DNA from: a virus
Lineage: Duplodnaviria > Caudoviricetes
Length of the DNA: 64,000 nucleotides
Virus record (IMG/VR): IMGVR_UViG_3300032226_000829
Reading direction: 5' to 3' (one strand)
In this document: positions 5,821 to 51,520 of the stretch, in pieces
Numbering within the stretch: the stretch's first letter is position 1
Layout of the letters: each line of letters starts with the position of its first letter
The notes under the pieces: generated by a model
Databases searched by the model: none
What the model was told of the DNA's origin: nothing
Seen by the model: the letters and a program-made list of their open reading frames with translations, nothing else
Position numbers and translations under genes: made by a program

Positions 5821-6741
5821 TTAGGGGTATTGAATGGTGTGTGTCCACAGTTTGTCCACCACCGTTTTTACACACTGCTGCCATTCACTCACATCAGATT
5901 CAGCTTGTGCCTGCCACCAAATATCCTGATCCCACCATCCTGCTTGAATGGTTAGGTTTTGATTTTTTACTTGAGCCACCACTCCGGCTGCTGTGTCACA
6001 ATCACCGTTGATGCCAGCCAGCACTGCTCGTTCACACCACAATTCAATAGTTTCCTCTGGTAGTAAGAATGGTTGCCAAAGATCCCATGAACGTTGATCT
6101 TTCTCTCTGATTTGAACCACCACACAACCAGCACCAGCAGCAGGCAACATTAATTCGTTTGGTAATATTTCGTGAGCTCCACTCCATGTGGGATGATTCC
6201 AATTGTTCTGTGTGTCTAATAAATTCAAACGTTGCACAGCACACTCAGCCATAATGATGGCAGAATATTCTCCATCAATTAATTTTTTTAATCTAGTACC
6301 GATGTTGCCTCGTAGACTGACCACTTCTACATCTGGTCTCAACAATCGAAACTGAGCAGCACGTCTGGCGCTGCTGGTGCCTACGCGAGTGTAGCTGGGA
6401 ATTTCAGTGTAAGAATTATAAGCACTCAGCACACAATCTCTACGATCATCTCTTCGCCACACACAGCCCAACAGTGTGGTGCCTGGTTGCACTTGAGTGG
6501 GCACATCTTTAGCACTGTGTATTACACAATCCACTTCACCTGCCAGCAATGCTTGTTCTAACTCTCTACAAAAAGCACCTTTGCCGCCTACTTCACTCAA
6601 GGGTCTATCAGTTACTAGATCTCCAGTGCTGACAATTTGTTTGATTGTGGTGGGTATGGATAAACCTTTCAGTGCCCACTGTGTTTGCACCATGGCCAGG
6701 TCTGACTGACGACTGCCCACAGTGTACACAGAAGTTTTCAT
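5821..6741 (-). CDS. hemC: Porphobilinogen deaminase (hydroxymethylbilane synthase)
   Basis: GSRxSxLA, GGKGAF, HSAKDVP, GTSSARR, RGNIGTRL and cofactor Cys in GDC. Confidence 0.93.
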   Translation of the reverse strand: MKTSVYTVGSRQSDLAMVQTQWALKGLSIPTTIKQIVSTGDLVTDRPLSEVGGKGAFCRELEQALLAGEVDCVIHSAKDVPTQVQPGTTLLGCVWRRDDRRDCVLSAYNSYTEIPSYTRVGTSSARRAAQFRLLRPDVEVVSLRGNIGTRLKKLIDGEYSAIIMAECAVQRLNLLDTQNNWNHPTWSGAHEILPNELMLPAAGAGCVVVQIREKDQRSWDLWQPFLLPEETIELWCERAVLAGINGDCDTAAGVVAQVKNQNLTIQAGWWDQDIWWQAQAESDVSEWQQCVKTVVDKLWTHTIQYP

Positions 6742-6747
6742 GATGGT

Positions 6748-7002
6748 TTAACGTCTACCCGACAGACCTTTTTTCTTGTGTTTCTTATCCAGTCCTAATT
6801 TTCTTTTGCGACCAACGGGTAGATCCATCCAGTAGCTCATGGGTTCACCTCGCTTGGTGAGATAGGTCACTTGTGTATCTGACACTTTGACTTTGGATTG
6901 AAATTGTTTCACTGCTCTTTTCCAGCTGAGTGCATCAATAGAATCTTTTTTGATTGTGCCTTGTTCAAAATAATCAAATTGGTATGTTTTCATTTTTGGC
7001 AT
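6748..7002 (-). CDS. Basic hypothetical protein
   Basis: 84 aa ORF ending 6 nt before the hemC start. Confidence 0.6.
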   Translation of the reverse strand: MPKMKTYQFDYFEQGTIKKDSIDALSWKRAVKQFQSKVKVSDTQVTYLTKRGEPMSYWMDLPVGRKRKLGLDKKHKKKGLSGRR

Positions 7003-7078
7003 GATTGAATCCTTTGTTTTGAAATATTTATTGTGAAAAAAAAATTAACAACTTATTCTGAAATGATAATTAATGTAT

Positions 7079-7549
7079 ATGGCCATACTATACCAATTAT
7101 GCTGTGGTAACCAACACCAATTTGAAGGATGGTTTCCCAGCATAGCACAATTTGACACACAAAAAGAAAAAGGACAATTGCAGTGCCCCATGTGTGGCAC
7201 CAAACAAGTAGATCGTGACATCATGTCACCCAGAGTGGGCAAAAATAAAAAAATCAAAACCAAAAAGTCCACACGTCAAGAACGCTTGGATGCATTAAAA
7301 GATCAAGTGCAGTCTCCTACAGAAATGATGATGGGCACTAGAGTGAAAGAAATGATGCGTACCATACGTGATCATGTCAAACGTGAATATGAATTTGTGG
7401 GTGATCGCTTTGTGAAAGAAGTTAAAAAATACGAACATGGTGAACGTGATGATCGTTTTTATGGAACTCCTAGCGAGGAAGAAGCACGCAAATTGATAGA
7501 AGAAGGTGTGGATCTGTTTGTGGTGCCTGATGTTAAGGACGATGCCTAA
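7079..7549 (+). CDS. DUF1178 family protein
   Basis: CxxxHxFEGWF...CPMCG...VGDRF...FYG signature. Confidence 0.85.
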   Translation: MAILYQLCCGNQHQFEGWFPSIAQFDTQKEKGQLQCPMCGTKQVDRDIMSPRVGKNKKIKTKKSTRQERLDALKDQVQSPTEMMMGTRVKEMMRTIRDHVKREYEFVGDRFVKEVKKYEHGERDDRFYGTPSEEEARKLIEEGVDLFVVPDVKDDA

Positions 7550-7800: not shown

Positions 7801-7803
7801 TAC

Positions 7804-10903: not shown

Positions 10904-11374
10904 ATGACAATATCAAACATACTTAAACCTATCAGTGTGGCTCTAGCTATATTCTTAGCTGCAGACTACTCCCTTGCTGGACCATTGCCTGACTACTCGT
11001 TCAAAAGCCCTGCTTTTAATGGCAATGGTTACAGCACTCACGAGTTGACCAAGTATAACCTGGAACAAACTCGTGCCAAGGAGATTCAACAGGCCTTGGA
11101 ATCCAAAGCTGCGGCTGCCAAAGCAGAGGCTAAGAACACGCCCATCAATCAGTTCATGGTCAATTTAGAATCAAGAATTTACGCACAGATCAGTCAAAAT
11201 TTAGCCACTGCTATGTTTGCAGATGGTGCAGCCACCACTGGCAGCATGACTTTTCAAGGCAACACCATATACTGGAACAAGAACGGCACCACGAGCATCA
11301 CGTTGATGGTGACAGATACTCTGGGCAACAACACCACCATAGAAGTGCCATTGGGACAATTTACATTTAATTAA
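10904..11374 (+). CDS. csgF: Curli assembly protein CsgF-like
   Basis: Signal peptide; FKSPAFNGNG and NLESRIYAQISQNL motifs; directly upstream of csgG. Confidence 0.8.
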   Translation: MTISNILKPISVALAIFLAADYSLAGPLPDYSFKSPAFNGNGYSTHELTKYNLEQTRAKEIQQALESKAAAAKAEAKNTPINQFMVNLESRIYAQISQNLATAMFADGAATTGSMTFQGNTIYWNKNGTTSITLMVTDTLGNNTTIEVPLGQFTFN

Positions 11375-11375
11375 T

Positions 11376-12233
11376 ATGATAAAAATTGCTTTGACATTGG
11401 GATTATTATTGCTGAGTAATTGTGCAGTGATGCAGAAAGGTGGCATGGAAAGCAAACCTGAAATCACTGAGATGAAAATGCAAAAAGAATTTGACACAGT
11501 GCCTACACCAGCACAGAAGAAGATCACAGTGGCAGTGTACAGTTTTCAAGACAAAACAGGACAGCGTAGGAACACTCCCAACGTGGCCAGTTTCTCCACA
11601 GCAGTCACACAGGGTGCAGAACCATTCCTGATCAAAGCTCTGCAAGATGTGGGCAAAGGTCAATGGTTTGATGTGGTAGAACGAGTGAACGTGGACAACC
11701 TGATCAAAGAGAGAACCATCATCAAACAGATGAGAGACATGTATGAGGGCGGCAATGCCAAGAGTGTGCCACCATTGCAATTTGCAGGCATCATAGTGGA
11801 AGGTGGCATCATTGGCTACGACAGTGGCATGGAGTCAGGTGGAGCTGCTTACAAATGGTTGGGCATAGGACCACAATCACAATATTCCAAAGACGTAGTG
11901 ACCATCAGTTTAAGAGCAGTATCAGTGAGCAGCGGCAAGGTGTTGGCTACTATCACAGTGAGCAAGACAATTTACAGCACAGCAGACAGCATTGCCATAT
12001 TGAAAGCATTCAGAGGCGGCACTGCATTTTTTGAAGCTGAGACAGGACTTACTATCAACGAACCCACCACTCTGGCAGTAAAGGCCACAGTCGAGGCAGC
12101 AGTGGTGGAATTAATAAATGAAGGCGAGCGCAAAGGTATTTGGAGTTTTAAAGATCCTAAACCTGAGAACCTAGACGAGTGGTATGAAAATAATAACCAA
12201 CAATTAAACAAAAAACAAGAGGAACAAAAATGA
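11376..12233 (+). CDS. csgG: Curli secretion channel CsgG/HfaB family lipoprotein
   Basis: Lipobox LSNC; VAVYSFQDKTGQR, FSTAVTQGA, WFDVVER, EGGIIGYD. Confidence 0.92.
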   Translation: MIKIALTLGLLLLSNCAVMQKGGMESKPEITEMKMQKEFDTVPTPAQKKITVAVYSFQDKTGQRRNTPNVASFSTAVTQGAEPFLIKALQDVGKGQWFDVVERVNVDNLIKERTIIKQMRDMYEGGNAKSVPPLQFAGIIVEGGIIGYDSGMESGGAAYKWLGIGPQSQYSKDVVTISLRAVSVSSGKVLATITVSKTIYSTADSIAILKAFRGGTAFFEAETGLTINEPTTLAVKATVEAAVVELINEGERKGIWSFKDPKPENLDEWYENNNQQLNKKQEEQK

Positions 12234-13177
12234 AAAATATGAAAATAATAATTCCTTGCTTGGTTACCATACTATATTCAACATCAGCTTTGTCTGATGA
12301 TAATTTGATTTATATTGACCAAGTGGGTTCGTCATCTGACGTCACAGTAACACAAACAGGCAGTGGCAACACAGTGGGTGGTACCAGTGGTGCGGCTGCA
12401 ACAGGTAATAGAGCGTCTTTGTCAGGATCAGATCAAACCATCAGTGTGACACAAACTGGCGATGGCAACACATTAAAATTAAAAACACAAGATGGATCCA
12501 CAGGAACCAGCATAACGAACTATTCAGCGACCGGTGACAACAACACGTCTATCGTGGACACTGTGAGCTCGGGTGCAGGTAACACCATCAATCAAACCAT
12601 ATATGGTGACACCAACACTACCAATGTCAATGTTAGAGGCAACAGTGGCGCCAACTCTGTGACCACAAATATTGGAACATCAGGTGCCAACAGCAACAGC
12701 AACACTGTGAATCAAAGTACCAGCGGTACTCTGAACAGTCAAACTGTGAGCATCACAGGTGGCAACAGCAACACCGTAACTGTGCTGCAAGGCAAAGGAT
12801 CTTCTCTGACCAATGATATCACAGTGCCCACCACTTCAGGCACGTTGTTGGGATTAGATTCCGCCACATTTGGATCTGGCTCAACCAGTGACAAGGCCAC
12901 TGCTTCAGTGACCATACAGGGTGGCAGCAACAATGTGAGAATTGGACAGGTGGGTGGAGATGCCACAGGCAACTCGGCCACTGTGGACATCTTAGGATCT
13001 TCCAACGGCATCAGCATTGCACAACAGGGACTGGGACACAGCTCATCTAGTTTGACTGTGACTGGTGGCAGCAACACTTTGAACGTGGGACAGAATGCTA
13101 CGTCAGGCAACACCAATACTACCACTATGAGTGTGACTGGCAGCAACAACTTGGTCAACATACAACAAAATCACTAG
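12230..13177 (+). CDS. Curlin-repeat protein 1 (CsgA/CsgB-like beta-solenoid)
   Basis: Signal peptide, NLIYIDQVG, many Q/T-x-G-x-x-N repeats. Confidence 0.8.
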   Translation: MKNMKIIIPCLVTILYSTSALSDDNLIYIDQVGSSSDVTVTQTGSGNTVGGTSGAAATGNRASLSGSDQTISVTQTGDGNTLKLKTQDGSTGTSITNYSATGDNNTSIVDTVSSGAGNTINQTIYGDTNTTNVNVRGNSGANSVTTNIGTSGANSNSNTVNQSTSGTLNSQTVSITGGNSNTVTVLQGKGSSLTNDITVPTTSGTLLGLDSATFGSGSTSDKATASVTIQGGSNNVRIGQVGGDATGNSATVDILGSSNGISIAQQGLGHSSSSLTVTGGSNTLNVGQNATSGNTNTTTMSVTGSNNLVNIQQNH

Positions 13178-13186
13178 GAATGTCCA

Positions 13187-14008
13187 ATGAGACTTCTAAA
13201 TTGGCTCACAGCAGGATTGATCGTTTCCTCGGCAACCTGCTGGGCAGCTGACAACGAGGCCTACATTGATCAACTGGGAGAATATGCCACCATATATGTG
13301 GAACAGGATGGTTCAGCCAACAGCCTAGGCGGAGTGGATGGACCCATATGGTACAGCAATCCTGCCATGATGTATGGTGATGGTCAAAATGTGGACATCA
13401 GACAGGTGGGATCTGGCAACTACTTAAAATTTTCTATTTTCACTAAATTGGAAGACTACGCATATACCAGAACCGGAGTCACATGCACAGGAGTGTGTGG
13501 TGAAGCGGATGCCAACGAGTTCGTGGTGTATACCACTGGCTACGGCAACCTGGGCACTGTGAACGTCAATGCCGATGGTGAGGTGGAAACATCTGGCATA
13601 GCACTGTACCTATCGGAGACTGGAGATTTCAATGAGAGCAACATATCCATCACTGGGTTGAAGCACACAGTGGTGCTGCTGACCATGGGCGACGTCAACA
13701 CATTCAACAGCGTGACTACAGGCGAAGAGAACTTCTCCTACACCAGCGTCACAGGATATCTCAACACTATTTCTATCACTCAAAGTGGCACTAAAGGTTT
13801 AGTCATATTGGACATAGCAGGCAATCAGAACACTGCCACTGTCACACAATCAGGTGGAGGAGCTCTAGGGCATTGGACCAATCTTTCTGTCAGTGGCAAT
13901 CTTAACACTCACACCATAGCACAGTCAGGCACAGCGGCGGACAGCGTGGTGGATATCAAGACCACGGGCGGCAGCAACAACTTTAACATCAACGTGAATT
14001 CAAGATAA
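13187..14008 (+). CDS. Curlin-repeat protein 2
   Basis: Signal peptide, NEAYIDQLG, QxGxxN repeats. Confidence 0.75.
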   Translation: MRLLNWLTAGLIVSSATCWAADNEAYIDQLGEYATIYVEQDGSANSLGGVDGPIWYSNPAMMYGDGQNVDIRQVGSGNYLKFSIFTKLEDYAYTRTGVTCTGVCGEADANEFVVYTTGYGNLGTVNVNADGEVETSGIALYLSETGDFNESNISITGLKHTVVLLTMGDVNTFNSVTTGEENFSYTSVTGYLNTISITQSGTKGLVILDIAGNQNTATVTQSGGGALGHWTNLSVSGNLNTHTIAQSGTAADSVVDIKTTGGSNNFNINVNSR

Positions 14009-15129
14009 TGAAAAAGATCCTATTATTGATGCTGTTATACACCACTGCTGTGTATCCAGCAGCCATAGGAACCATCACAGAACAAACAGCAGCACCAGGT
14101 TCTATTGTGAGAAATAAGAATACCATCACAGGCACCAAAGGCACAGGCATAGAGATGCAGGATGCTGTGAACACTGCCAAGGGCAAAGTGGGCATAACAT
14201 TTGAAGATGCTACCCGAGTGGAAGTGAATGAAAATTCCAAACTCGTGATAGATGATTTCGTTTATGACGCTAAAAAAGGTTCAGGCAAATTGGCCATGAA
14301 GTTTGCTGAAGGCACAGTGAGATATGCCTCAGGTGCCATTGCCAGCAAGAATCCCAATGCAGTTAATATCAACACACCATCTGCCACCATTGCAGTGCGA
14401 GGCACAGACTTCACTGCCACTGTGGATGAAGTGGGTGCCAGCACCATTATTCTATTGCCCAGTTGTCCCAAAGGTTGGGCAGACATAGACAGAGATTGCA
14501 AGACCGGAGTGATTGATGTGATGAATAATGCAGGCACAGTCACTTTAAACAAACCCTTTCAAGGCACCAGAGTGGAGAATAGAAACACAGCACCATTAAA
14601 ACCTACCATACTGAGTTTGAATTTAGACACCATTAATAACCTGTTGATTGTGAGCCCACCCAAAGAGATCAAACAGGCACAGGAACAATATGACAACGAA
14701 GCAAAAAACACAGCCAGCATGCTGAATGAAAATCTATTGGACAGCAAGGATTTTTTAAAAGATGAATTGAAAAGCAGGAATGAGTTTGGAGATAATCCTC
14801 TGCTGGAAGATCTACTGGGACAAAATTTCTTGGCCAACATCTTTGACATATTGGAGCAACAGTTAAAGAATGAAAGAAAAGCAGTGTTAAAAAGTGCATT
14901 GGTCCCAGAAGGTGACAGCCTGCTGCCGGACTACAATCCTGACACAGGAGTAAAGGCCACAGTGGGTGCATCGGAAGTGACGCTGTGCCGTAATGATGGC
15001 AGCAACAATCAGTGCATCACCACACCGCGCGGTCAGAGCAGCACCATCATACAGGGTCAAGGACCAGTGAGCATTCAGAACAGGGTCAACTCAGGTGGTG
15101 GCACAACCATAACAGTGATACAACGATGA
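14008..15129 (+). CDS. FecR-domain secreted protein
   Basis: ITFEDATRVEVNENSKLVIDDFVYD, TPSATIAVRGTDF typical of FecR. Confidence 0.85.
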   Translation: MKKILLLMLLYTTAVYPAAIGTITEQTAAPGSIVRNKNTITGTKGTGIEMQDAVNTAKGKVGITFEDATRVEVNENSKLVIDDFVYDAKKGSGKLAMKFAEGTVRYASGAIASKNPNAVNINTPSATIAVRGTDFTATVDEVGASTIILLPSCPKGWADIDRDCKTGVIDVMNNAGTVTLNKPFQGTRVENRNTAPLKPTILSLNLDTINNLLIVSPPKEIKQAQEQYDNEAKNTASMLNENLLDSKDFLKDELKSRNEFGDNPLLEDLLGQNFLANIFDILEQQLKNERKAVLKSALVPEGDSLLPDYNPDTGVKATVGASEVTLCRNDGSNNQCITTPRGQSSTIIQGQGPVSIQNRVNSGGGTTITVIQR

Positions 15130-16436
15130 GAAAAATATTATTATTAATGTTATTATTATGCTCAGATGCTTGGGCAACACTGTCATATAAAACATATAGA
15201 GGCACAGGTGCTTATCCTAGTATGCCATATTACGGCACAGGTCAACTATATTACCCAACTGTATTAAGCACTGGAACAGTGGCTAATATTAATTACAATT
15301 GGGGCGGTGGTTATGTTTTAGATTCAGGTAGACATGAACAAGTCATTGTAAATTTTTATGGTTATATCACCATACCAGGATCAGGATCTCAAACAATATA
15401 TTTTTATAGTGCTAGTGATGATGGGTTTTATCTGAGGGTAAACAATTCCACAGTTATTAATAGTTGGGTTGAACAAGGAGTATCATATTACAATGGTTCA
15501 GGAAGTATTGTACTACAAGGTGGACAATCATATTATATCGATGCTTGGATGTATGAGAATGGTGGAGGTGCGGCTGCTATGTTATATTGGAATACAGGTT
15601 CAGGTATAACCGTAGTTCCAAGTTCAGCATTAACTACAACTATGCCAGCAGGTTCAGGAGGTGGAGGCAGTTACATCAGCAATATCACAAACACACAACA
15701 GAACAACATCACTGCCAATCTGGGCAGAACCACAGCACTGGCCAACGGCAATGAGATCTACATAGATCAAGTGGGAAACAATAACACAACAACAATCACT
15801 CAAAAAGGTAATAATAATAAAATCACAGGTACCACACAGCAAACTGCCACCATATCAGGCAACAGCAACTCTACCACTATCAGACAGAACAGTGGCACAG
15901 GTAAAAATTTAATAGATCTAAATGTGACCGGCACGGGCAGCAACACCCTCAACCTCAACCAGGGCTATCTCACAGATGGCACACTGAGCGGCAATCAACT
16001 GGGCAACAACTATCAGAAAGTGGATGTGCAGGGCAACAACAACTCATTGACCACTCAGCAGAATAGAGATGTGGGCACAGTGGGCAATTACATGGAACAC
16101 ACTGTGATTGGCAATTACAACAGCATCACCAGCACACAGAGCGGAGACAACAAATTATTATTCAATTCTATCACGGGCAACTACAACACTGTGAGCACCA
16201 CACAGTCAGGCACAGGCGCTCAACACTATATTGATTTGACACTGAATGGTGCAGGCAACACTGCCACTGTGAATCAGAGTGGCAACACACAGAACAAGGC
16301 CACCATAGTGATCAACAATTTGGGTGGATCAGCGGGTGTGAATCTCACACAGACCGGCGGGCAAACCTACAACATCACTACCAACTGCGTGACACTGGGC
16401 GGTTGCGGCACTACCACGGTGAACCAAGCACAATAA
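15126..16436 (+). CDS. PA14 domain + curlin-repeat fusion protein
   Basis: Start reassigned to ATG 15126 (signal peptide); PA14 with SDDG and YENGGGA; C-terminal NEIYIDQVG and curlin repeats. Confidence 0.8.
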   Translation: MRKILLLMLLLCSDAWATLSYKTYRGTGAYPSMPYYGTGQLYYPTVLSTGTVANINYNWGGGYVLDSGRHEQVIVNFYGYITIPGSGSQTIYFYSASDDGFYLRVNNSTVINSWVEQGVSYYNGSGSIVLQGGQSYYIDAWMYENGGGAAAMLYWNTGSGITVVPSSALTTTMPAGSGGGGSYISNITNTQQNNITANLGRTTALANGNEIYIDQVGNNNTTTITQKGNNNKITGTTQQTATISGNSNSTTIRQNSGTGKNLIDLNVTGTGSNTLNLNQGYLTDGTLSGNQLGNNYQKVDVQGNNNSLTTQQNRDVGTVGNYMEHTVIGNYNSITSTQSGDNKLLFNSITGNYNTVSTTQSGTGAQHYIDLTLNGAGNTATVNQSGNTQNKATIVINNLGGSAGVNLTQTGGQTYNITTNCVTLGGCGTTTVNQAQ

Positions 16437-16447
16437 ATACTCATATT

Positions 16448-18484
16448 ATGAAATGGGTCAGTCCTTGGACAGCAATCATCACTTTGATATTAATCCTCAC
16501 TGTTAGGATGGCAGACCCCGCATTTGTGGAGAGTGTGCGACTGAGATACTTTGACACTCTGATCACTGGCAAAACTGCCACACAAAACAACATATACACT
16601 GTTAACATTGACGAGAAGAGTTTGGAGCAGTATGGGCAATGGCCATTCCCCCGAGATGTGTATGGCCGGATTATCCAAGATTTGTATGACAGAGGAGCAG
16701 GGTTAGTGGTGTTCAACGTGCTGATGCCAGAACCAGATCGCAGTGGCAAAGATGCGACATTGGCAGAAACCATGCGAAAATATCCTGTGGTGTTGAGCAA
16801 TGTGCCAGCACAACAGACCAAGAATGAACCCCGAGTGCCAGGCTCAGCAGTGCTGGGACCAGAACATCTTAACACCATTGTGAAATATTCAGGCATGATT
16901 GCCAATATACCGTCATTGGAAAATGCTGCTGTGGGAGTGGGAACCACCAACACACTGCCAGAGATAGATGGCGTGAACCGACGACTGCCTCTGATAGTCA
17001 CTGTGGATGGAAAATTATATCCCAACCTTGCAGTGGAAACTCTGAGAGTGGCCACAAACAATTCTACATTTCAAGTCAAGTTAAATGTGAATGGTGTGGA
17101 GAAGATGAGACTGCCTGGAGACATAGGCATCATTGACACAGACTCCTTGGGCAGAGTATGGATAGATTGGAGTCAACGGAATCACTCAGTGTCTTTAAAT
17201 GATCTACCCGCAGACTTCAAAGGATCCATAGTGATAGTGGGCACATCAGCAGCAGGCATAGCCAATCCAGTGGCCACAGCCATAGGACCAGTTTGGCCTC
17301 AGGATCTACAAGCAGCCGTGATAGGCACCATGATCAACAAAGTGAATATCAAGAGACCTGATTGGGCAGAGGGTGCAGAAACAATCAGTTTAATACTATT
17401 GTCCTTGACTTTATTATTTTTAAGCAGATGGGTTTATGTGGGCATGGCAATGGGAGTCATTATGATTGTTGCCGTGGTTCCTTTGAGCAATCTTTTTTAC
17501 ACACACAATCTTTGGCTGTTGGATGGCACTCTACTGGTGGCAGGATTGACATTGGTGATGCTGCATGCCTATGGTATCAAATTTGTCAGTGAGTATCTAC
17601 AGAAACAGAGAATCAAGAAACAATTTGGTGGATATGCATCTCCCATGGTGGTTGAAATGTTGCAGAAGAATCCAGACATAATCAAACAAGGTATTAAGAA
17701 AGAAGTATCCATCTGTTTTTCAGATCTGCGTGGATTCACTCCACTGGGAGAATCATTTGGCAATGATGTGAAAGGATTGACTGAAGTGATGAATGGTTAT
17801 ATGGATGCCATCACACAACCTGTGTTGGATGCCAACGGCATGATCATCAAGTACATTGGTGATGCCAGCATGCACATTCACAATGCACCCATGGATGATC
17901 CAGAACATCCTAAAACAGCAGTGCAGACTGCACTTCGCATGTTGAAGGCAGTGGAACGTTTCAATGAGACATTAACAGCCAAAGGTAGACCCATTGTGGG
18001 CATGGGTGCTGGTATCAACACTGGTCTGGGTTATATCGGTGAAATGGGCAGCACACAGCGACATTCATATGATGTGTTGGGTGATGCTGTGAGCACCACA
18101 GCAAGATTGGAAAGTCAATGCAAGAACTATGGAGTGCTATTGATAGTGGGTCCTGAAACCCATCGCAGAACTCAGAATGATTTCTTCTATCTCAAACTGG
18201 ATGATTTGGCAGTGAAAGGCAAAACTGTGGGATTGGAGATCCACACAGTGTTGGATTTGAATGCTGCGGAACATGCAGATGACAAACAAACACATGATGC
18301 CATGCATGCGGATTATAGGAATCAAAAATTTGATGCAGCCATTCAAAAATGCAAACAGTTGCAAGACCGATTTGATGGTCAGATGAAAAAATACTATGAC
18401 ATGTGGCAAGAGCGTTGTGAATACATGAAAACACAAACGTTGCCCAAGGATTGGACGGGTGTGTTCACAGCCACCAGCAAGTGA
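16448..18484 (+). CDS. CHASE2-domain class III adenylate cyclase
   Basis: CHASE2 (GQWPFPR, VFNVLMPEPD), 3 TM helices, FSDLRGFT, KYIGDA, INTG, YDVLGDAVSTTARLE. Confidence 0.92.
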   Translation: MKWVSPWTAIITLILILTVRMADPAFVESVRLRYFDTLITGKTATQNNIYTVNIDEKSLEQYGQWPFPRDVYGRIIQDLYDRGAGLVVFNVLMPEPDRSGKDATLAETMRKYPVVLSNVPAQQTKNEPRVPGSAVLGPEHLNTIVKYSGMIANIPSLENAAVGVGTTNTLPEIDGVNRRLPLIVTVDGKLYPNLAVETLRVATNNSTFQVKLNVNGVEKMRLPGDIGIIDTDSLGRVWIDWSQRNHSVSLNDLPADFKGSIVIVGTSAAGIANPVATAIGPVWPQDLQAAVIGTMINKVNIKRPDWAEGAETISLILLSLTLLFLSRWVYVGMAMGVIMIVAVVPLSNLFYTHNLWLLDGTLLVAGLTLVMLHAYGIKFVSEYLQKQRIKKQFGGYASPMVVEMLQKNPDIIKQGIKKEVSICFSDLRGFTPLGESFGNDVKGLTEVMNGYMDAITQPVLDANGMIIKYIGDASMHIHNAPMDDPEHPKTAVQTALRMLKAVERFNETLTAKGRPIVGMGAGINTGLGYIGEMGSTQRHSYDVLGDAVSTTARLESQCKNYGVLLIVGPETHRRTQNDFFYLKLDDLAVKGKTVGLEIHTVLDLNAAEHADDKQTHDAMHADYRNQKFDAAIQKCKQLQDRFDGQMKKYYDMWQERCEYMKTQTLPKDWTGVFTATSK

Positions 18485-30454: not shown

Positions 30455-30499
30455 TCACATATGGACTGGTTAACCATTGACAACAGGCGGCCAGTCTGT

Positions 30500-30507: not shown

Positions 30508-30512
30508 GTCAC

Positions 30513-30728: not shown

Positions 30729-30793
30729 TGGATCCTGTCACTTTATTACTCTTATTCAATGTCACGGTGTGGCTGTACTGGACTGTGAAATAA
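30728..30793 (+). CDS. 21-aa hydrophobic peptide MDPVTLLLLFNVTVWLYWTVK
   Basis: TAATG coupling on both sides. Confidence 0.5.
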   Translation: MDPVTLLLLFNVTVWLYWTVK

Positions 30794-30861
30794 TGGATCC
30801 CATCATTGTGATTGTGGCCTTGATTATTATCACTGTGGAAATTTATATTCGCTTACTCTAA
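30793..30861 (+). CDS. 22-aa hydrophobic peptide MDPIIVIVALIIITVEIYIRLL
   Basis: TAATG coupling; same MDP start as the neighbour. Confidence 0.5.
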   Translation: MDPIIVIVALIIITVEIYIRLL

Positions 30862-30865
30862 TTAA

Positions 30866-32069: not shown

Positions 32070-32113
32070 ATTATGTGTGTACTTATGTGAGGTTCACATT
32101 AAATACTCTGATT

Positions 32114-32992
32114 ATGACAGGTAGATTGATAGTGGTGGGTGACAGTTTCTGCATACTGCCCGGAGCAAAAGATTCATTCCGAAATTGGTGTCAGCAGGCA
32201 GCAGAGGCCATGGGCATGACTCTGGTGGTGGCAGCAGGTGCTGGGGTGAGTCAAGATTGGCAATGGGATCAGTTGCAACAGTTGTTTGAACACATCACCC
32301 CCGAAGATCGTGTGCTGGTGGTGCCCACACACTGTGAGCGTCAATGGTTTGTGGCAGACAAGCCTGCCTACACTCATGTAAATTGTGCCAACCTACCTGA
32401 AGAGTTGGGAGTGGAAGTGAGCGAAGCCATACGTCATTATTGTGTGCATCTGCAAAGACCCGATTTAGATCTGCAACATCAAGCACATCGCTTGGGATGG
32501 CTGCATGCCCAAGTGGATCGCGTGGGAGCTCACCCCATCTGGGTGCTGCCTGCGTTCCGACTGCATTGGATCATCAAAGGTGTTCAAACCAGTACCCCTG
32601 AATATTGGGATCATTTCCGCATCAGAGGATTGAACAATCTGCTGTTGAGTGATCAAAATCTCTATGAAGCTGTGCAAGAGCGTGAGATGCAGCCGGGCGA
32701 GAGCACCAACACAGTGTTTCAAGGAGTGGATGTGAGATACAATCATCTGCTGAGACACAATCATGAGATACTGGCTCATTGTGTGGTGAGAGCCATCCAA
32801 AGCAAACAGCCAGTGGATCTTCAAGATCCTCGTTGGATGTGTGAACGCCTAAGCCCCAAGATCTGGCAAGACACAAGATTCATTCAGGATCAGATGGATG
32901 TGAATCAGCTCCAACGTCGTGAAGATATACTGAACAGATTTGAAGGCTCACTGATAGACAAAGTCTGGTACAAAGATTGGTTCAAAAAGTGA
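32114..32992 (+). CDS. SGNH/GDSL-like hydrolase-fold protein
   Basis: IVVGDSF, AGVSQ, RYNHL; TTAAATA upstream. Confidence 0.6.
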   Translation: MTGRLIVVGDSFCILPGAKDSFRNWCQQAAEAMGMTLVVAAGAGVSQDWQWDQLQQLFEHITPEDRVLVVPTHCERQWFVADKPAYTHVNCANLPEELGVEVSEAIRHYCVHLQRPDLDLQHQAHRLGWLHAQVDRVGAHPIWVLPAFRLHWIIKGVQTSTPEYWDHFRIRGLNNLLLSDQNLYEAVQEREMQPGESTNTVFQGVDVRYNHLLRHNHEILAHCVVRAIQSKQPVDLQDPRWMCERLSPKIWQDTRFIQDQMDVNQLQRREDILNRFEGSLIDKVWYKDWFKK

Positions 32993-33471
32993 AACCCATA
33001 CAAAAAATACCCACTTATTATCACAGCCGTTGGAATGATGACAAAGAAGATGTTTTCTCATGGAAAGAAGTAGTGTTGTTGGCTCTCATACTGGCCATCA
33101 TATGGGGAGTGTATTGGTTGATCATACACTGGGTGGATCACTTACTAGGTGATTGGCTGGCATGGTATGTGGAATTGATCAGCCCTTTGATGGCACTGCC
33201 AGTGATGTGGGTGTGCAATTCATATGGCAGAAATCCCCTGCATTGGTGGCCCATGGTGTGGGGTCATCGTGTGCAGTTGGATGCACAAAATGCCGAATTG
33301 GTGCTGATGGATGCAGATGCTGTGACTCAGTTTATGGGTGGTCGCAGTCGTGTGTGGTGTGACACTCGTGATGTCAATCAAGTATACCTAAAGTTCCGAC
33401 GCCGTCGTGATGCTGTGTGGTTTGGACTGTTCCCTCATTTTTTTCGAAACAAAAAGAAGAAAATCAAATAA
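32989..33471 (+). CDS. Membrane protein
   Basis: GTGA overlap with the upstream stop; two TM segments. Confidence 0.55.
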   Translation: MKPIQKIPTYYHSRWNDDKEDVFSWKEVVLLALILAIIWGVYWLIIHWVDHLLGDWLAWYVELISPLMALPVMWVCNSYGRNPLHWWPMVWGHRVQLDAQNAELVLMDADAVTQFMGGRSRVWCDTRDVNQVYLKFRRRRDAVWFGLFPHFFRNKKKKIK

Positions 33472-34195
33472 CTTTTATCATCTGAGGCTGAGTAGGCTTG
33501 TCATCTCTGTTCCAATGAGGTTCCCCTGGTGGAGTATTGGCCACACAAAATCCCAAACGTTCACCCTGATCATTCAGTACAGGCACAGAAAAACCACCAC
33601 GCTCTGCTGCCAAATCATCTGCGGCATATCCCATGCCCATGGCTACCACAGCACAATAACTGGGCATGCCCAAGTGTTCAGCCACCATCTTGTTGTGATG
33701 ACACACACCATACCCTGTGCGTAAACCTTGTTCTTCTGCAGCCAACATGGCAGCAGTGGCACTGATGTAGATATCACTGCGTTGTTGATAAGCATCAGGA
33801 GTGCTCACATTGTATTGTTGAATTTGGCCATCCACTTCTTTCTGCACAACAATACGACGAGCATTCTTCAGCTCACTCAACCAAATCAAAACCACTGGTG
33901 CACGATATTGTCCGTTGTAGTCGCGATCTTCATCACTCTGATGCCCCACAGGTATGTCATAGGCTGGATGACCATCCCATGCCCAAGTGTGTTCATAGAA
34001 CAACCAATCCTTGATTTTTTTGCCTTCCACACTGTCAGTGATGGCCACTATCTTATGACTGTGATGCGCCATCTTGCTGGGTGTTAAGTAAGCACAATCC
34101 AAAACATAATTCAAAATGGATTCATTAACAGGTGTGTTTTGCCACAGTTTGGTGGTGTATCTTTCACTCAGCAACTGTTTAATGGATTTTGTCAT
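33464..34195 (-). CDS. Nitroreductase-family protein
   Basis: LSERYTTK, LTPSK, APVVLI, AMLAAEEQGLRTGY. Confidence 0.75.
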   Translation of the reverse strand: MTKSIKQLLSERYTTKLWQNTPVNESILNYVLDCAYLTPSKMAHHSHKIVAITDSVEGKKIKDWLFYEHTWAWDGHPAYDIPVGHQSDEDRDYNGQYRAPVVLIWLSELKNARRIVVQKEVDGQIQQYNVSTPDAYQQRSDIYISATAAMLAAEEQGLRTGYGVCHHNKMVAEHLGMPSYCAVVAMGMGYAADDLAAERGGFSVPVLNDQGERLGFCVANTPPGEPHWNRDDKPTQPQMIKVI

Positions 34196-47745: not shown

Positions 47746-48897
47746 CTACCATAGTAATGACTTTCCTACTGTAAACCCATTGTTTACACTGTAATCTGGA
47801 GTTTGAAGTTTTGTACTTTTTTGTAATTGAGCTATGTAAAAAGGCATTCCACATTTAGGTTCAGTAACAAAACCTTTTATTTTTTTTGTTTCTGCATAAC
47901 TTTCTGCATTAGCTTTTTTATACCAAGTTTCATATACCTGTTTGACTTTGCTCCAAAATGAACCTGTTTCAGACCAATTGGCTTCAAAATATTTTTTATT
48001 GAAGTCAACTAATTCAAGTAAGTATGCATCATCCACCACTATGTTTTGTTTGTGGCAAGCATCAAAAAACTCATACAGCATTCTTACTTCTTTAGCCTGT
48101 GTGGGTCTTTTAGGATTAAGAAATGCAAAATATTGTGAAAACATTCTAGTGACCTCTGGATGTTTTCTAGTTTTTAAAGACTTGCTCATTAGAGTATCTG
48201 CTAATAATGTGATTGCACCCTCTTCCTCTTCGTCACCAAATTTTTTATCAGTGGCAAATAATCCTGCCGCAGATAGATAATCATTTTTCTTGGCTGTATC
48301 TAACCATTCTGGATCAGTGCTTCCATCTATTTTGACTCCATAAACCATTTGTCTATATTTGTCAATAAAATCAATTTTTTGTTTGGCATCGCCATTCAAT
48401 AAAATAAAATTCCTACGTATTTCTAATTTGTGTTTGACAGGATAAATTACCACTGGAAACATCTGATTAGCTAAACGCTCACCAAATACCTTAGTGATTA
48501 AAATATACAGCATCACAGCAGTGTGTTGACCCTCCCAAGCAATGTAATATCCAGGTTTTTCGTCGTCTTCATACACTTGAATAGCCATTACCATAGTGGC
48601 TGCAAAACAATTAATAATGTTCATAATAAATTCTAAATTCAAAGGTCTTTGCATGGTAGCGTCAATAAGAATTTTATCAGCTGGAACCATTATACCTTTG
48701 CAAATTTTAATTTGTTCGAAAGACGTGTATTGGTTTGCGTGGCGTCTTTTGAATTCATCTACCACTTGTTCTAACCTTGCTTTAAAGTATGACGCAAGAC
48801 TTAAGGCAAAATCCAAGCGACTTTCCAAAGTTACGAAATTACTTCCTTTGTTGAGATATTGTTTATTGATGAGGTCGGCGTGTGAGTGTACTAACAT
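47746..48897 (-). CDS. ParB/Srx-fold (DGQH-like) domain protein
   Basis: IDATMQRPL...IAWEGQHT resembles the DGQH(R) motif; AT-rich. Confidence 0.55.
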   Translation of the reverse strand: MLVHSHADLINKQYLNKGSNFVTLESRLDFALSLASYFKARLEQVVDEFKRRHANQYTSFEQIKICKGIMVPADKILIDATMQRPLNLEFIMNIINCFAATMVMAIQVYEDDEKPGYYIAWEGQHTAVMLYILITKVFGERLANQMFPVVIYPVKHKLEIRRNFILLNGDAKQKIDFIDKYRQMVYGVKIDGSTDPEWLDTAKKNDYLSAAGLFATDKKFGDEEEEGAITLLADTLMSKSLKTRKHPEVTRMFSQYFAFLNPKRPTQAKEVRMLYEFFDACHKQNIVVDDAYLLELVDFNKKYFEANWSETGSFWSKVKQVYETWYKKANAESYAETKKIKGFVTEPKCGMPFYIAQLQKSTKLQTPDYSVNNGFTVGKSLLW

Positions 48898-49040
48898 TTT
48901 TTTCTCCTTTTAGTTGCGGACATAATGTCCTATTAGCGGGCCATATTGCCCTAAAGTTAAATGTTAATTAGATAATATAATAAGTTATATAAAAAGTCAA
49001 TCAGAAAAGACTGCCAAAATAACTGTTGATATAGAAGGAT

Positions 49041-49700
49041 TTATAGTACCAGTGTGCTGGTGCTGTCGCCCACTTGGCCCGAAACCCAAGTGTTGAATGC
49101 CAGACTGTAGCGTTCTTTTTTGGGATTGCTCTTGTTGGTAGTGACTGAATGTGTGAGCCAGCTGGGGAAGAATACCACGTCCCACTTCTTAGGGCGCAGA
49201 CTCCAACCCTGTGCGTTGAACACATTGAACTTGTCAGGATTGAAATTGTAATCAATTTTCACCACATCAGGAAACACGTTGGTCCAATGCTTGTCTTTGT
49301 GGAACACAATGTCACCTGTGTCCTGCACATCTGATAGATACAACACTCCCGATATGAGACTGTTGCTGTGATAGTGTTCGCCCGAATAATCCTGATCCAT
49401 GTATTGATTCATCCATGAAGTGTTGATTCTAAATTTGTGTTTGCGATCCACATCCAAAAATCCATGCAAAAAGTCTTCCAATCTTGCTGTGAGTGCATCC
49501 TTGAGTGGTCGGCAGATGGGTTCATCCAACACGAACAGCCCTGACGAGTTCTTGGCATTGCTGTAGATCAATCTCTTGTAGTCCAATTTATTAATGAGGT
49601 AATCCTCAATCACTGAGCTCTGTGGTTCTATTTCTGTATTGCACACGGGTACGGCAAACAAAGGCAGCACATTTTCGTTGGTGATGGGTTTCAAAGACAT
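49041..49700 (-). CDS. Putative 2OG-Fe(II) oxygenase (TIGR02466-like)
   Basis: HYHSNSLISGVLYL, FFPSWLTHSV, RYSLAFN. Confidence 0.85.
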   Translation of the reverse strand: MSLKPITNENVLPLFAVPVCNTEIEPQSSVIEDYLINKLDYKRLIYSNAKNSSGLFVLDEPICRPLKDALTARLEDFLHGFLDVDRKHKFRINTSWMNQYMDQDYSGEHYHSNSLISGVLYLSDVQDTGDIVFHKDKHWTNVFPDVVKIDYNFNPDKFNVFNAQGWSLRPKKWDVVFFPSWLTHSVTTNKSNPKKERYSLAFNTWVSGQVGDSTSTLVL

Positions 49701-49715
49701 TGTACTATTATATAA

Positions 49716-50696
49716 CTAATTTTTTACCAAGTCAATCAGTTTCTGAATCTGTGTGGGTTTGGTTTGTTTGAGTATGCCATGTCCTAGATTGAACACATAA
49801 GGATGATCCTTAAATTTATCCAAATACATTTTGGCAGTGTGCAGCATGTTTTGGGTATCACCCAATAATTTTTTTGGATCCAGTCCTCCTTGTATGGGCC
49901 AACGATTCAACATCTGCAGAGCCCAATCGATATCCATGGTGTAATCAATGCTGATGCAACTGGGATTCACTGTTTTACAAAAATTTAAAACTTGATTGGG
50001 TTTCAATCCTTTGGGGAAACAGATGATGGGCACAGTGGGGTGTCTCATTCTCAATGCAGTGACTATCTGCTGATTGGGCAAGATACAATGTCGCATCACA
50101 TCTGCATCAGTTTTGAGTGTGCCTGCATGACTGTCAAATATCTGTACCACATCACATCCTGCCAGTATTTGATTGCTCAAATGTTCCACAGTTTGTACTA
50201 TCAATCTTTGATGAACATCTTCCTGTTCTCGTTCGGTCAGTGTGACAGTGGGGTCAATCATATAGTGCATCAGTGTGTGAGGAGCAGCAGCAAATCCTAT
50301 GAGACTTTGGTCCCAAGCCAATCTTTCACGTGTGATTTTTATGCTACGATACACAGGTGTAAGTTTTTTTAAAAATTCTTTTGGGTCATGGTCAAAAAAA
50401 GTATTCAAATCAAACACACTCAGTTCAGGACCCTGCTGAGCCACGAATTCTAAATCTTGTCCCATGGCCCAAGGAATCAACAGTATGTCGGAAAATATAA
50501 TGGCAGCATCTAATGCATAACGACGCACAGGTTGCAGAGTGATCTCCACCACAGTGGGCACATCCAAGGCTTTCTCCATGAAAGTCATATGATTCATCAC
50601 ACGATATTCAGGCAGGTATCTGCCAGCCTGACGCATGAACCACACTGGTTTGGGTTCAGTAACACTGCCCTGTAATGTTTGTTTTAATCTATTCAT
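49716..50696 (-). CDS. hemE: Uroporphyrinogen decarboxylase
   Basis: VWFMRQAGRYLPEYR, DAAIIFSDIL, QIFDS, FNLGHGI. Confidence 0.95.
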   Translation of the reverse strand: MNRLKQTLQGSVTEPKPVWFMRQAGRYLPEYRVMNHMTFMEKALDVPTVVEITLQPVRRYALDAAIIFSDILLIPWAMGQDLEFVAQQGPELSVFDLNTFFDHDPKEFLKKLTPVYRSIKITRERLAWDQSLIGFAAAPHTLMHYMIDPTVTLTEREQEDVHQRLIVQTVEHLSNQILAGCDVVQIFDSHAGTLKTDADVMRHCILPNQQIVTALRMRHPTVPIICFPKGLKPNQVLNFCKTVNPSCISIDYTMDIDWALQMLNRWPIQGGLDPKKLLGDTQNMLHTAKMYLDKFKDHPYVFNLGHGILKQTKPTQIQKLIDLVKN

Positions 50697-51520
50697 CACC
50701 ATTCAGCGTGGGGAGGCATGCTCATCAAGATGGCATCCACACAGCCACCAGTATTTAAACCAAACTGTGTGCCACGGTCGTACATCAGGTTGAACTCCAC
50801 ATAGCGTCCACGTTTGCGATTTTGAATCTGTTTGTCTTTCTGAGTGTATTTTTTACTTTGATTCTGATCTATCATTTGGAGGCTAAGACGATGAAATGCT
50901 TCACCCACCTGCTGTATGAACACAAAGTCTCCTATGTAGGCATTGGGGTGACTCAACAGCATGTGATCAAAAAATATACCGCCCGCACCTCTCACTTCTT
51001 TACGATGCTTGATATAAAAGTATTCATCACACTGTCGACGAAACTGTGCTGAATCCTTGTGATGGTTCTCACAGGTTTCTTTCAACACTGTGTGCCACAG
51101 TTCTATGGATTTTTTATTGGGATGACTGGGAGTTTGATCCATGCCACCTCCCCACCAACACTGTGTGGTCTCCAAGTATCTTGTGTTAAAATGCATGGCT
51201 GGTACATAAGGGTTTCTGGGATGAGCCACCACACTGATGCCTGTGGCAAAGAATGCACCATCCTTGTCGGCACCCATGACCTGACTGCGATATCTCTCAT
51301 CAATCACTCCTCTCACAGTGCTCACATTCACTCCCACTTTTTCAAACACCACACCACCCTGCAATAACATCATCACACCACCACCATTCACAGTCTTGGG
51401 TCCACGCTGCCATTCTGTGCGTTTGAATCGTGCTCGAGGTTCTAATTTTTGATAGCTCGCACACAACTGATCTCTCAGTGTTTCAAACCATGTTTGATTG
51501 ATTCGGCGTAGATCAGTCAT
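50696..51520 (-). CDS. hemF: Oxygen-dependent coproporphyrinogen III oxidase
   Basis: FEKVGVNVS, HPRNPYVPAMHFNTRY, GGGMDQTP, RGRYVEFNLMYDRGTQFGL. Confidence 0.95.
   Translation of the reverse strand: MTDLRRINQTWFETLRDQLCASYQKLEPRARFKRTEWQRGPKTVNGGGVMMLLQGGVVFEKVGVNVSTVRGVIDERYRSQVMGADKDGAFFATGISVVAHPRNPYVPAMHFNTRYLETTQCWWGGGMDQTPSHPNKKSIELWHTVLKETCENHHKDSAQFRRQCDEYFYIKHRKEVRGAGGIFFDHMLLSHPNAYIGDFVFIQQVGEAFHRLSLQMIDQNQSKKYTQKDKQIQNRKRGRYVEFNLMYDRGTQFGLNTGGCVDAILMSMPPHAEW

What the first reader, a model, noticed from the sequence alone, without database searches (positions are those of the whole stretch)
5821..51520. Three tetrapyrrole biosynthesis enzymes (hemC, hemE, hemF) in one phage
Seen: full-length HemC (5821-6741) and a translationally coupled nth-hemF-hemE operon (49716-52208), all with catalytic motifs. 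Established: these are steps 3, 5 and 6 after ALA; the familiar phage tetrapyrrole genes (ho1, pcyA, pebS in cyanophages) act downstream of heme. HemD, between HemC and HemE, is not in this window. Inference: the phage boosts heme flux for respiration or oxidative-stress enzymes, an unusually deep capture of a core pathway.
Basis: partly seen in the sequence, partly recalled or inferred. Interest (0 to 1): 0.68.

Follow-up and report, generated by a model that had tools for sequence, protein, structure and literature searches.

The report
Phage-borne haem enzymes HemC, HemE, HemF
A giant water-column phage related to the viruses of SAR11 and OM43 bacteria carries intact genes for three middle steps of haem synthesis; phage haem genes were already noted in passing in 2020, but related phages collect every step of the pathway except one (HemD).

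Summary
hemC (5821-6741), hemE (49716-50702) and hemF (50696-51520) are full-length and keep their catalytic residues. They lie in the hypervariable region of a T4-like myophage related to Melnitz and HTVC008M, between the replication genes and a structural gene.

A chimeric assembly is excluded: about 24 independent metagenome and IMG/VR contigs show the same junctions. All three genes are under purifying selection (dN/dS 0.13-0.20).

HemE and HemF are nearest to Pelagibacterales proteins (44-50% identity). The origin of HemC is unresolved.

The capture is not unusual for this phage group. Among 33 IMG/VR records chosen for carrying hemF or a window-type hemC:
- HemC occurs in 24 and HemE in 24.
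- ALA synthase occurs in 12 and HemB in 12.
- HemJ occurs in 2 and HemH in 1.
- HemD occurs in 0.

The genes sit in several gene orders and have separate origins.

Zaragoza-Solas et al. 2020 already listed HemF and HemC in one pelagimyophage. Wegner et al. 2024 described viral ALA synthase. This scan found similar gene sets on other genomes.

I found no paper describing phage hemE, the recurring set without HemD, or the constant 2OG-Fe(II) oxygenase neighbours.

The most likely role is to sustain tetrapyrrole flux in the infected cell. Activity and end product are untested.

The parts
5821..6741 (-). hemC, hydroxymethylbilane synthase (306 aa), three domains, cofactor Cys248
   Evidence: TIGR00212 243 bits, above the 164 cut-off; PF01379 and PF03900 both present. 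Aligned to PDB 4mlq and 1pda. A clade of 15 relatives has catalytic columns invariant. dN/dS 0.13 against L002.
6748..7002 (-). 84-aa ORF 6 nt upstream of hemC, no family; conserved neighbour
   Evidence: ORF listed. No Pfam or PHROG match. 83% identical copy before hemC in L002/L034. Weak homologues (37-39%) lie near hemC in marine contigs L168 and L177.
5142..5684 (-). 180-aa 2OG-Fe(II) oxygenase-like protein just downstream of hemC
   Evidence: phrog_274. Nearest Atlas clusters are viral prolyl-4-hydroxylase / PF13640 2OG oxygenases. A homologue sits next to hemE in L006 and L155-L157.
49716..50702 (-). hemE, uroporphyrinogen decarboxylase (328 aa; probable true start at 50696)
   Evidence: PF01208 257 bits. 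TIGR01464 279 bits, below the 303 cut-off. Aligned to human UROD with all active-site residues kept. Relatives begin at the third codon. dN/dS 0.15.
50696..51520 (-). hemF, oxygen-dependent coproporphyrinogen III oxidase (274 aa)
   Evidence: NF003727 321 bits, above the 297 cut-off. Aligned to PDB 2aex, 8t7w and 1tkl. The short C-terminus is shared with the 274-aa Pelagibacteraceae proteins. dN/dS 0.16-0.20.
51513..52208 (-). nth, endonuclease III-like glycosylase; overlaps the hemF start; variable accessory, not a haem gene
   Evidence: HhH-GPD domain; TIGR01083 168 bits, below its 212 cut-off. The C-X6-C-X2-C-X5-C cluster motif is visible in the translation. Absent in L001 and L130-L132, present in L004 and L136-L145.
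49041..49700 (-). 2OG-Fe(II) oxygenase (PF13759, phrog_81), 15 nt after hemE; constant partner of the cassette
   Evidence: Family matches. Follows hemE in every window-clade contig that covers the site, at 82-100% identity. Paralogues follow alaS in G004 and lie between alaS and hemC in G005.
1297..4850 (+). phage replication genes (Toprim primase-like, carbamoyltransferase, DnaB helicase) flanking the hemC locus
   Evidence: phrog_19 DnaB at 244 bits. Pfam matches.
10904..18484 (+). curli-type operon (CsgF, CsgG, curlin-repeat proteins, FecR, PA14) and CHASE2-cyclase; hallmark of pelagimyophage-type phages
   Evidence: Pfam matches. The cyclase is 48% identical to Melnitz and 36% to HTVC008M. 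The curli operon is described for pelagimyophages in PMC7029224.
38532..39534 (-). cluster of eight tRNA genes
   Evidence: ARAGORN and Rfam.
53426..55333 (-). phage dnaK, upstream marker of the hemF-hemE cassette in all relatives
   Evidence: PF00012 903 bits. phrog_22485. Synteny.
62912..64000 (-). virion structural protein gene (runs off the window)
   Evidence: phrog_1645, head and packaging, 309 bits.

Best explanation
These are three working auxiliary metabolic genes of a large T4-like aquatic myophage. During infection the phage makes its own porphobilinogen deaminase, uroporphyrinogen decarboxylase and oxygen-dependent coproporphyrinogen oxidase. These add capacity at steps 3, 5 and 6 of the protoporphyrin route.

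The host supplies HemB, HemD, the protoporphyrinogen oxidase and ferrochelatase. ALA probably comes from a phage ALA synthase: one is present in all four close relatives whose records could be searched, and an earlier unchecked note reports one elsewhere in this genome.

The net effect is to keep or raise flux from ALA to protoporphyrin and haem, and possibly on to a bilin, while host gene expression is shut down.

Shown: gene identity, intact active sites, phage context, purifying selection, and recurrence in related phages. Inferred: enzymatic activity, expression, the direction of the effect and the end product.
For: - Family scores and catalytic residues.
- Active-site columns are invariant across 24 HemF, 15 HemC and 12 HemE clade members.
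- dN/dS is 0.13-0.20 although dS is 0.8-1.2.
- The phage context is secure. Replication genes, curli operon, cyclase shared with Melnitz and HTVC008M, tRNA cluster and a structural gene are all present.
- The same junctions occur in L001-L005, L034, L035 and L130-L147.
- Over 33 IMG/VR records the tallies are HemC 24, HemE 24, ALAS 12, HemB 12, HemJ 2, HemH 1.
- Gene orders differ between lineages: hemE-hemF-hemC, hemF-hemC-hemE-hemB, and alaS-2OG-hemC.
- The genes have separate origins. HemF forms at least 3 viral lineages. HemC forms two. The two HemE types are only 25-28% identical to each other. Repeated independent capture of the same steps argues for selection on function.
- SAR11 genomes carry hemD next to hemC in 5 of 5 cases, so a SAR11-type host could supply the missing step.
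- HemE was found limiting in ALA-fed E. coli (PMC11943725).
Against:
- HemE scores below the NCBIfam equivalog cut-off.
- The host is unknown. The window's GC of 42% is far above the 25-30% of the SAR11-like contigs.
- If the phage raises ALA and HemC, HemD should become limiting. In ALA-fed E. coli the HemD step limits and uroporphyrinogen I piles up. Yet HemD is absent from all 33 records. The simple bottleneck-relief account does not explain this.
- alaS is not in this window.
Confidence: 0.6

Rival explanations
1. The pathway is driven not for haem in respiration but to make a phage-specified tetrapyrrole end product. The product would be a bilin made through phage haem oxygenase and PcyX, and HemC, HemE and HemF feed that route.
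For: - Wegner et al. 2024 describe alaS with hemO and pcyA/X in pelagimyophage-like contigs.
- An earlier scan note (e1-5390664) reports alaS, hemO and pcyX about 225 kb upstream in this same genome (not checked here).
- alaS travels with the window-type cassette in G004, G011, G012 and G035.
Against: - hemO and pcyX are not in this window and were not searched for in the relatives.
- No receptor or use for a bilin is known in heterotrophic hosts (PMC11480375, section heading).
- Many records with hemC, hemE and hemF were not shown to carry bilin genes.
Confidence: 0.2
2. The three enzymes act mainly as a drain. An unregulated phage ALA synthase floods the pathway, and HemC, HemE and HemF stop photoreactive uro- and coproporphyrin(ogen)s from accumulating and killing the cell before lysis.
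For: - Viral AlaS often lacks the haem feedback site (PMC11480375).
- ALA overload in E. coli gives uroporphyrin accumulation with HemE limiting.
- alaS co-occurs with hemE and hemF in all four window-type records.
Against: - Without added HemD, extra HemC should increase the dead-end type I isomers, not reduce them.
- 21 of 33 records show no alaS, though they are fragments.
- No phototoxicity data exist for these hosts.
Confidence: 0.1
3. The genes are passengers: recently captured host genes, or enzymes that have lost activity, with no role in infection.
For: - They sit in a hypervariable region with much gene turnover.
- HemE is below the equivalog cut-off.
- nth beside them comes and goes.
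Against: - The genes are only 32-50% identical to any cellular homologue found, so they are old in phages.
- dN/dS is 0.13-0.20 and catalytic columns are invariant.
- The same steps were captured repeatedly and independently.
Confidence: 0.05
4. The contig is a host-phage chimera, or binned host DNA, at the hem loci.
For: None was found.
Against: - hemC lies between DnaB and the curli operon. hemF-hemE lies between dnaK and SufE/porin/tRNAs.
- The same order is seen in about 24 separately assembled contigs.
- No cellular homologue exceeds 50% identity.
Confidence: 0.01

Closest known systems
Haem-biosynthesis genes of pelagimyophage PMP-MAVG-4 (Zaragoza-Solas, Rodriguez-Valera, Lopez-Perez 2020, PMC7029224)
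   Same: It is a T4-like myophage of the HTVC008M group with a curli operon in the hypervariable region between the replication and structural modules. Coproporphyrinogen oxidase and porphobilinogen deaminase are listed as phage genes.
   Different: - The paper gives one sentence and no analysis. hemE is not mentioned.
- PMP genomes are 132-164 kb and marine. Earlier scan notes say this window lies at least 248 kb into a larger genome.
- The names of its closest contigs look like lake samples. That is my reading of the names and is not verified.
- Whether the window is related to MAVG-4 itself could not be tested.
Viral 5-aminolevulinate synthase with hemO and pcyA/X (Wegner et al. 2024, PMC11480375)
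   Same: It covers the same broad phage group and the same pathway, with the same idea of sustaining tetrapyrrole supply in the virocell. alaS lies 10-15 kb from the window-type hemF-hemE cassette in G004, G011, G012 and G035.
   Different: - That work covers step 1 and the catabolic steps, with biochemical proof for alaS, hemO and pcyA.
- The middle steps (hemC, hemE, hemF) do not appear in its text: 'coproporphyrinogen' and 'hemC' each have 0 occurrences, and the single mention of uroporphyrinogen III is as a pathway intermediate.
- alaS is not in this window.
Cellular HemC, HemE and HemF of Pelagibacterales
   Same: HemE and HemF are nearest to Pelagibacter proteins (44-50% identity). HemF shares the short 274-aa form.
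   Different: - The phage clades sit on long stems, and their place among Pelagibacterales and Rickettsiales is unresolved.
- The window-type HemC is only 32-39% identical to SAR11 HemC and does not group with it. The other viral HemC clade does group with SAR11.
- Cellular hemC is followed by hemD. The phage copies never are.
Ferrochelatase with an adjacent 2OG-Fe(II) oxygenase in HTVC023P-type pelagipodophages (PMC9599517)
   Same: A haem-pathway gene in a SAR11-type phage always has a 2OG-Fe(II) oxygenase beside it. Here hemE, hemC and, in relatives, alaS have such neighbours.
   Different: The phage family is different (podophages) and so is the haem step. No function is known for the oxygenase in either case.

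Membership tests
Hydroxymethylbilane synthase (HemC, TIGR00212) | Whole-protein score above the curated equivalog cut-off, with both Pfam domains | tested here: met
   243 bits against a cut-off of 164. PF01379 210 bits and PF03900 29.4 bits (cut-off 26).
Hydroxymethylbilane synthase (HemC, TIGR00212) | Dipyrromethane cofactor cysteine, catalytic Asp and substrate-binding arginines | tested here: met
   C248 aligns with the cofactor Cys of PDB 4mlq. K78/D79, R11, R126/R127, R144 and R150 are present and invariant in the clade.
Hydroxymethylbilane synthase (HemC, TIGR00212) | Converts porphobilinogen to hydroxymethylbilane | not testable with these tools
   Needs an enzyme assay or complementation of an E. 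coli hemC mutant.
Uroporphyrinogen decarboxylase (HemE, PF01208 / TIGR01464) | Score above the curated cut-off | tested here: inconclusive
   The Pfam score of 257 bits is far above its 23.9 cut-off. The NCBIfam equivalog score of 279 bits is below its 303 cut-off.
Uroporphyrinogen decarboxylase (HemE, PF01208 / TIGR01464) | Active-site residues equivalent to human R37, R41, D86, Y164, S219, H339 | tested here: met
   R24, R28, D72, Y147, S191 and H308 are aligned to human UROD and invariant in 12 clade members.
Oxygen-dependent coproporphyrinogen III oxidase (HemF, NF003727 / PF01218) | Score above the curated equivalog cut-off | tested here: met
   321.5 bits against a cut-off of 297. PF01218 293 bits.
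Oxygen-dependent coproporphyrinogen III oxidase (HemF, NF003727 / PF01218) | Conserved His, Arg, Asp and terminal Trp positions; full-length fold | tested here: met
   H100, H110, R114, D128, H143, H172, R177, R237/R239 and W274 are invariant. The roughly 25 C-terminal residues of E. coli and human enzymes are missing, but Pelagibacteraceae HemF has the same 274-aa length.
Phage auxiliary metabolic gene | Lies inside a phage genome with phage genes on both sides, reproducibly | tested here: met
   Phage context. The same junctions appear in about 24 independent contigs.
Phage auxiliary metabolic gene | Homologue of a host metabolic gene, kept under purifying selection in the phage lineage | tested here: met
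   44-50% identity to Pelagibacterales HemE and HemF. dN/dS 0.13-0.20.
Phage auxiliary metabolic gene | Expressed during infection and alters host metabolism | not testable with these tools
No cultured host exists.
Pelagimyophage / Melnitz-type T4-like myophages | Curli-type CsgF-CsgG operon in the hypervariable region between replication and structural modules; shared signature proteins | tested here: met
   CsgF, CsgG and curlin-repeat proteins are present. The CHASE2-cyclase is 48% identical to Melnitz and 36% to HTVC008M. The layout matches that described in PMC7029224.
Pelagimyophage / Melnitz-type T4-like myophages | Genome of 132-164 kb and a SAR11 or OM43 host | not testable with these tools
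   No whole genome is held for this window. Earlier notes place the window at least 248 kb into the genome. CheckV rates the 43.6-kb relative G004 as 11% complete. The host is unknown.

The most novel reading that the evidence does not exclude
Phages of this group assemble a haem pathway that systematically leaves out HemD, and their haem genes are systematically tied to 2OG-Fe(II) oxygenases:
- hemE is followed by a PF13759 oxygenase.
- hemC is followed by a PF13640-like oxygenase.
- alaS, an oxygenase and hemC are contiguous in G005.
- Ferrochelatase is followed by an oxygenase in podophages.

The most novel reading is that one of these oxygenases is an undescribed component or regulator of tetrapyrrole metabolism in the infected cell. 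It could, for example, couple flux to iron, oxygen or 2-oxoglutarate, or make the pathway tolerant of missing HemD capacity. On that reading it would not be a chance neighbour.
Probability: 0.12. Interest if true: 0.75.

Novelty: new member of a known kind. Interest (0 to 1): 0.45.

Why it matters
Haem is needed for respiration in the most abundant heterotrophs of oceans and lakes. A virus that carries its own enzymes for the committed middle steps shows which steps limit tetrapyrrole supply in an infected cell.

The comparison with related phages adds more than the window does. Seven of the eight haem steps occur in this phage group, they were captured several times independently, and HemD was not seen in 33 records. 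This gives a testable statement about pathway control in streamlined bacteria.

It also points to the 2OG-Fe(II) oxygenase neighbours as candidates for an unknown link. The enzymes themselves are ordinary and the general idea is already published.

Tried and rejected
- **Host-phage chimera.** Rejected: the same junctions occur in many assemblies.
- **Isolate phages with these genes.** tblastn against 50,697 GenBank phage records found only mislabelled bacterial records, such as Salmonella contigs and 'Acinetobacter phage MD-2021a'. PHROGs v4 has no family for HemC, HemE or HemF.
- **HemF C-terminal truncation as a phage peculiarity.** Rejected: Pelagibacteraceae HemF is also 274 aa.
- **nth as part of a haem operon.** Rejected: it is an accessory gene that comes and goes.
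- **Hidden HemD.** No HEM4 match was found in any plausible window ORF of 140 aa or more or in 33 viral records at E <= 0.01. The same model hits 12 of 14 control genomes and 5 of 5 SAR11 genomes.
- **'HemD is never limiting' as the explanation.** Weakened by E. coli data.
- **Host assignment from the phage porin.** There was no match in the five genomes tried. The MAG labelled Janthinobacterium is 1.1 Mb and groups with Rickettsiaceae in the HemF tree, so it could not serve as a Burkholderiales centre.
- **T4 capsid family search in the five long records.** Uninformative: nothing matched anywhere, the control genomes included.
- **Promoter and terminator scan.** Fewer promoter-like sites than in shuffles, so no claim is made.
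  - The genome search does not hold metagenome records.
  - No whole genome is held for the window.

Full report
**1. What is there**

The minus strand carries hemC at 5821-6741 and a tight run of nth (51513-52208), hemF (50696-51520) and hemE (49716-50702).
- HemC passes the NCBIfam equivalog cut-off (243 against 164 bits) and has both Pfam domains.
- HemF passes its cut-off (321 against 297 bits).
- HemE is a clear URO-D (257 bits in Pfam) but falls under the stricter equivalog cut-off (279 against 303 bits).

Alignments to solved structures keep every active-site position I could name.
- HemC keeps the cofactor cysteine and the Lys-Asp and Arg positions.
- HemE keeps the equivalents of human R37, R41, D86, Y164, S219 and H339.
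- HemF keeps its His, Arg and Asp set and the terminal Trp.

HemF ends about 25 residues earlier than the E. coli or human enzymes. Pelagibacteraceae HemF has the same 274-residue length, so this is a lineage feature and not damage.

The stop-start overlaps are real. hemE probably begins at its third codon, as in its relatives.

**2. It is a phage, and not a chimera**

The window holds the following:
- a primase-like gene and a DnaB helicase;
- a curli-type CsgF-CsgG operon and a CHASE2-cyclase;
- a cell-wall hydrolase;
- a cluster of eight tRNA genes, plus two further tRNA genes elsewhere in the window;
- dnaK;
- a virion structural gene.

The cyclase is 48% identical to that of Methylophilales phage Melnitz and 36% to that of Pelagibacter phage HTVC008M. 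The layout matches the pelagimyophage description: replication module, hypervariable region with the curli operon, then structural genes.

IMG/VR record G004 is syntenic with window positions 30.8-62.9 kb.

The hemF-hemE-oxygenase cassette sits between dnaK/csp and the 383-aa gene, SufE and the porin. It does so in L001/L003, L004, L005 and in 18 further metagenome contigs, L130-L147. hemC sits between DnaB and the polysaccharide deacetylase and curli genes in L002/L034 and L035.

No whole genome is held for this window. Earlier notes of this scan place the window at least 248 kb into one piece, so this would be a jumbo phage. CheckV rates 43.6-kb G004 as 11% complete.

**3. Selection and origin**

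Window against relatives:

| Gene | dN/dS |
|---|---|
| HemF | 0.16-0.20 |
| HemE | 0.15 |
| HemC | 0.13 |

dS for the hem genes is 0.8-1.2. The flanking 383-aa gene has dS 0.04 and dnaK has dS 0.20. The cassette is therefore conserved in function but much more diverged than its flanks, which suggests allele exchange at this site.

In L005 the neighbouring oxygenase is 90% identical while HemF is 48% and HemE 57% identical.

In the 5.8-billion-protein search:
- HemF and HemE each form a tight phage clade (74-97% and 75-96% identity). Identity then drops sharply to proteins named Pelagibacter or Pelagibacteraceae at 44-50%.
- HemC has a phage clade at 82-99% identity. Beyond it, only about 40% matches to mixed bacteria appear.

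The trees give the same picture:
- In a 105-row HemF tree the window clade sits on a long stem among Pelagibacterales and Rickettsiales. A second, larger viral clade and a third small one lie elsewhere.
- In the HemC tree the other viral HemCs nest within SAR11 HemC. The window clade does not.
- The two viral HemE types are only 25-28% identical to each other.

**4. The wider pattern**

Scanning IMG/VR with alignments of the HemF clade and of the HemC clade gave 33 records, about 1.07 Mb in total. The tallies with family models are below.

| Step | Records of 33 |
|---|---|
| HemF | 31 (by selection) |
| HemC | 24 |
| HemE | 24 |
| ALA synthase | 12 |
| HemB | 12 |
| HemJ | 2 |
| Ferrochelatase (HemH) | 1 |
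| HemD | 0 |

All four window-type cassette records are among the 12 with ALA synthase.

Gene orders differ between lineages:
- hemE-hemF-hemC;
- hemF-hemC-hemE-hemB;
- the dispersed window type;
- in G005, alaS-oxygenase-hemC, with hemE, hemF and hemH elsewhere in the record.

Every step but HemD is thus seen in this phage group. The records are fragments, so absence in any one proves little. Zero of 33 against 24 of 33 for its usual operon partner hemC is nevertheless striking. SAR11 genomes carry hemD directly beside hemC.

**5. What is known already**

- Zaragoza-Solas et al. 2020 list coproporphyrinogen oxidase and porphobilinogen deaminase among the genes unique to pelagimyophage PMP-MAVG-4.
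- Wegner et al. 2024 characterise viral alaS with hemO and pcyA/X.
- No paper in the searchable library pairs uroporphyrinogen decarboxylase with auxiliary metabolic genes. None uses the gene names hemC, hemE and hemF together with AMGs.
- GenBank isolate phages and PHROGs lack these families.
- This scan has reported similar sets on other genomes (e1-5856348, e1-5829208, e1-5337611). It has also noted alaS, hemO and pcyX elsewhere in this genome (e1-5390664). I could not check the latter.

**6. How it most likely works**

The phage adds capacity at steps 3, 5 and 6 and relies on the host for HemB, HemD, the protoporphyrinogen oxidase and ferrochelatase. ALA probably comes from the phage's own synthase.

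In ALA-fed E. coli the HemE step is limiting, which fits. The HemD step is limiting there too, with uroporphyrinogen I as a by-product, which does not fit the consistent lack of phage hemD. I leave that point unexplained.

Whether the end product is haem for respiration or a bilin is open.

**7. Side observations**

- 2OG-Fe(II) oxygenases are the constant neighbours of phage haem genes, both here and in the literature.
- Five SAR11 genomes show no glutamyl-tRNA reductase above its cut-off, and only one has ALA synthase.

**8. Verdict**

It is a solid new example of a phage haem-gene set already flagged in the literature. Its added value is phage hemE, the recurrence of the set with independent origins, and the HemD gap.

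Noticed in passing
window 49041-49700 and 5142-5684; L122:5208-5861; L120:2687-3343: 2OG-Fe(II) oxygenases are the most constant neighbours of phage haem genes. One follows hemE and one follows hemC in the window. One follows alaS in G004, and one sits between alaS and hemC in G005. A 2022 paper reports the same for ferrochelatase in pelagipodophages (PMC9599517).
   Followed up: partly
genomes G006-G010 (Pelagibacterales, reached through L055, L078, L090, L071, L038): None of five SAR11 genomes has a glutamyl-tRNA reductase match above its cut-off, and only one has ALA synthase. All five have hemC and hemD. How most of them make ALA is unclear.
   Followed up: partly
window 51513-52208 compared with L001, L130-L132: The endonuclease III gene overlapping hemF is an indel polymorphism. 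It is missing in the closest relatives (HemF 96%, HemE 99% identical) and present, at only 78-81% identity, in more distant ones.
   Followed up: yes
window 47746-51520 compared with L001 and L005: The hem cassette is far more diverged than its flanks (dS 0.8-1.2 against 0.04 for the 383-aa gene). In L005 the oxygenase is 90% identical while HemF is 48% and HemE 57% identical. This suggests cassette exchange at a fixed site.
   Followed up: partly
L013:10768-11514 and relatives (L007, L011, L012, L014, L017-L019): A viral HemC form of about 248 aa has lost nearly all of domain 3 but keeps the cofactor cysteine (GDC motif) and all catalytic motifs.
   Followed up: partly
window 33464-34195, 39729-44417, 56894-57619: A run of host-like iron, redox and envelope genes: nitroreductase-family protein, 1-Cys peroxiredoxin, Gram-negative porin, further 2OG oxygenases, SufE, a QueF-like protein, and a Bax1-inhibitor family membrane protein.
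   Followed up: no
L058, L095, L104 (genome contigs): ORFs of 502-505 aa with an N-terminal HemC region lie beside hemF and hemE in a Neomarinimicrobiota MAG and two single-cell genomes labelled Alphaproteobacteria. They may be HemC-HemD fusions. The viral type B/C HemE is nearest to the HemE of these genomes (44-52% identity).
   Followed up: no
window 47746-48897: A 383-aa protein with no Pfam or PHROG family is 99-100% conserved in G004 and L132. In L130 a variant only 30% identical occupies the same site.
   Followed up: no
window 30000-34000: This stretch has higher G+C (0.47-0.51) than the rest of the window (0.34-0.47) and no recognisable families except a nitroreductase-family protein. 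The corresponding genes in G004 are only 40-60% identical.
   Followed up: no
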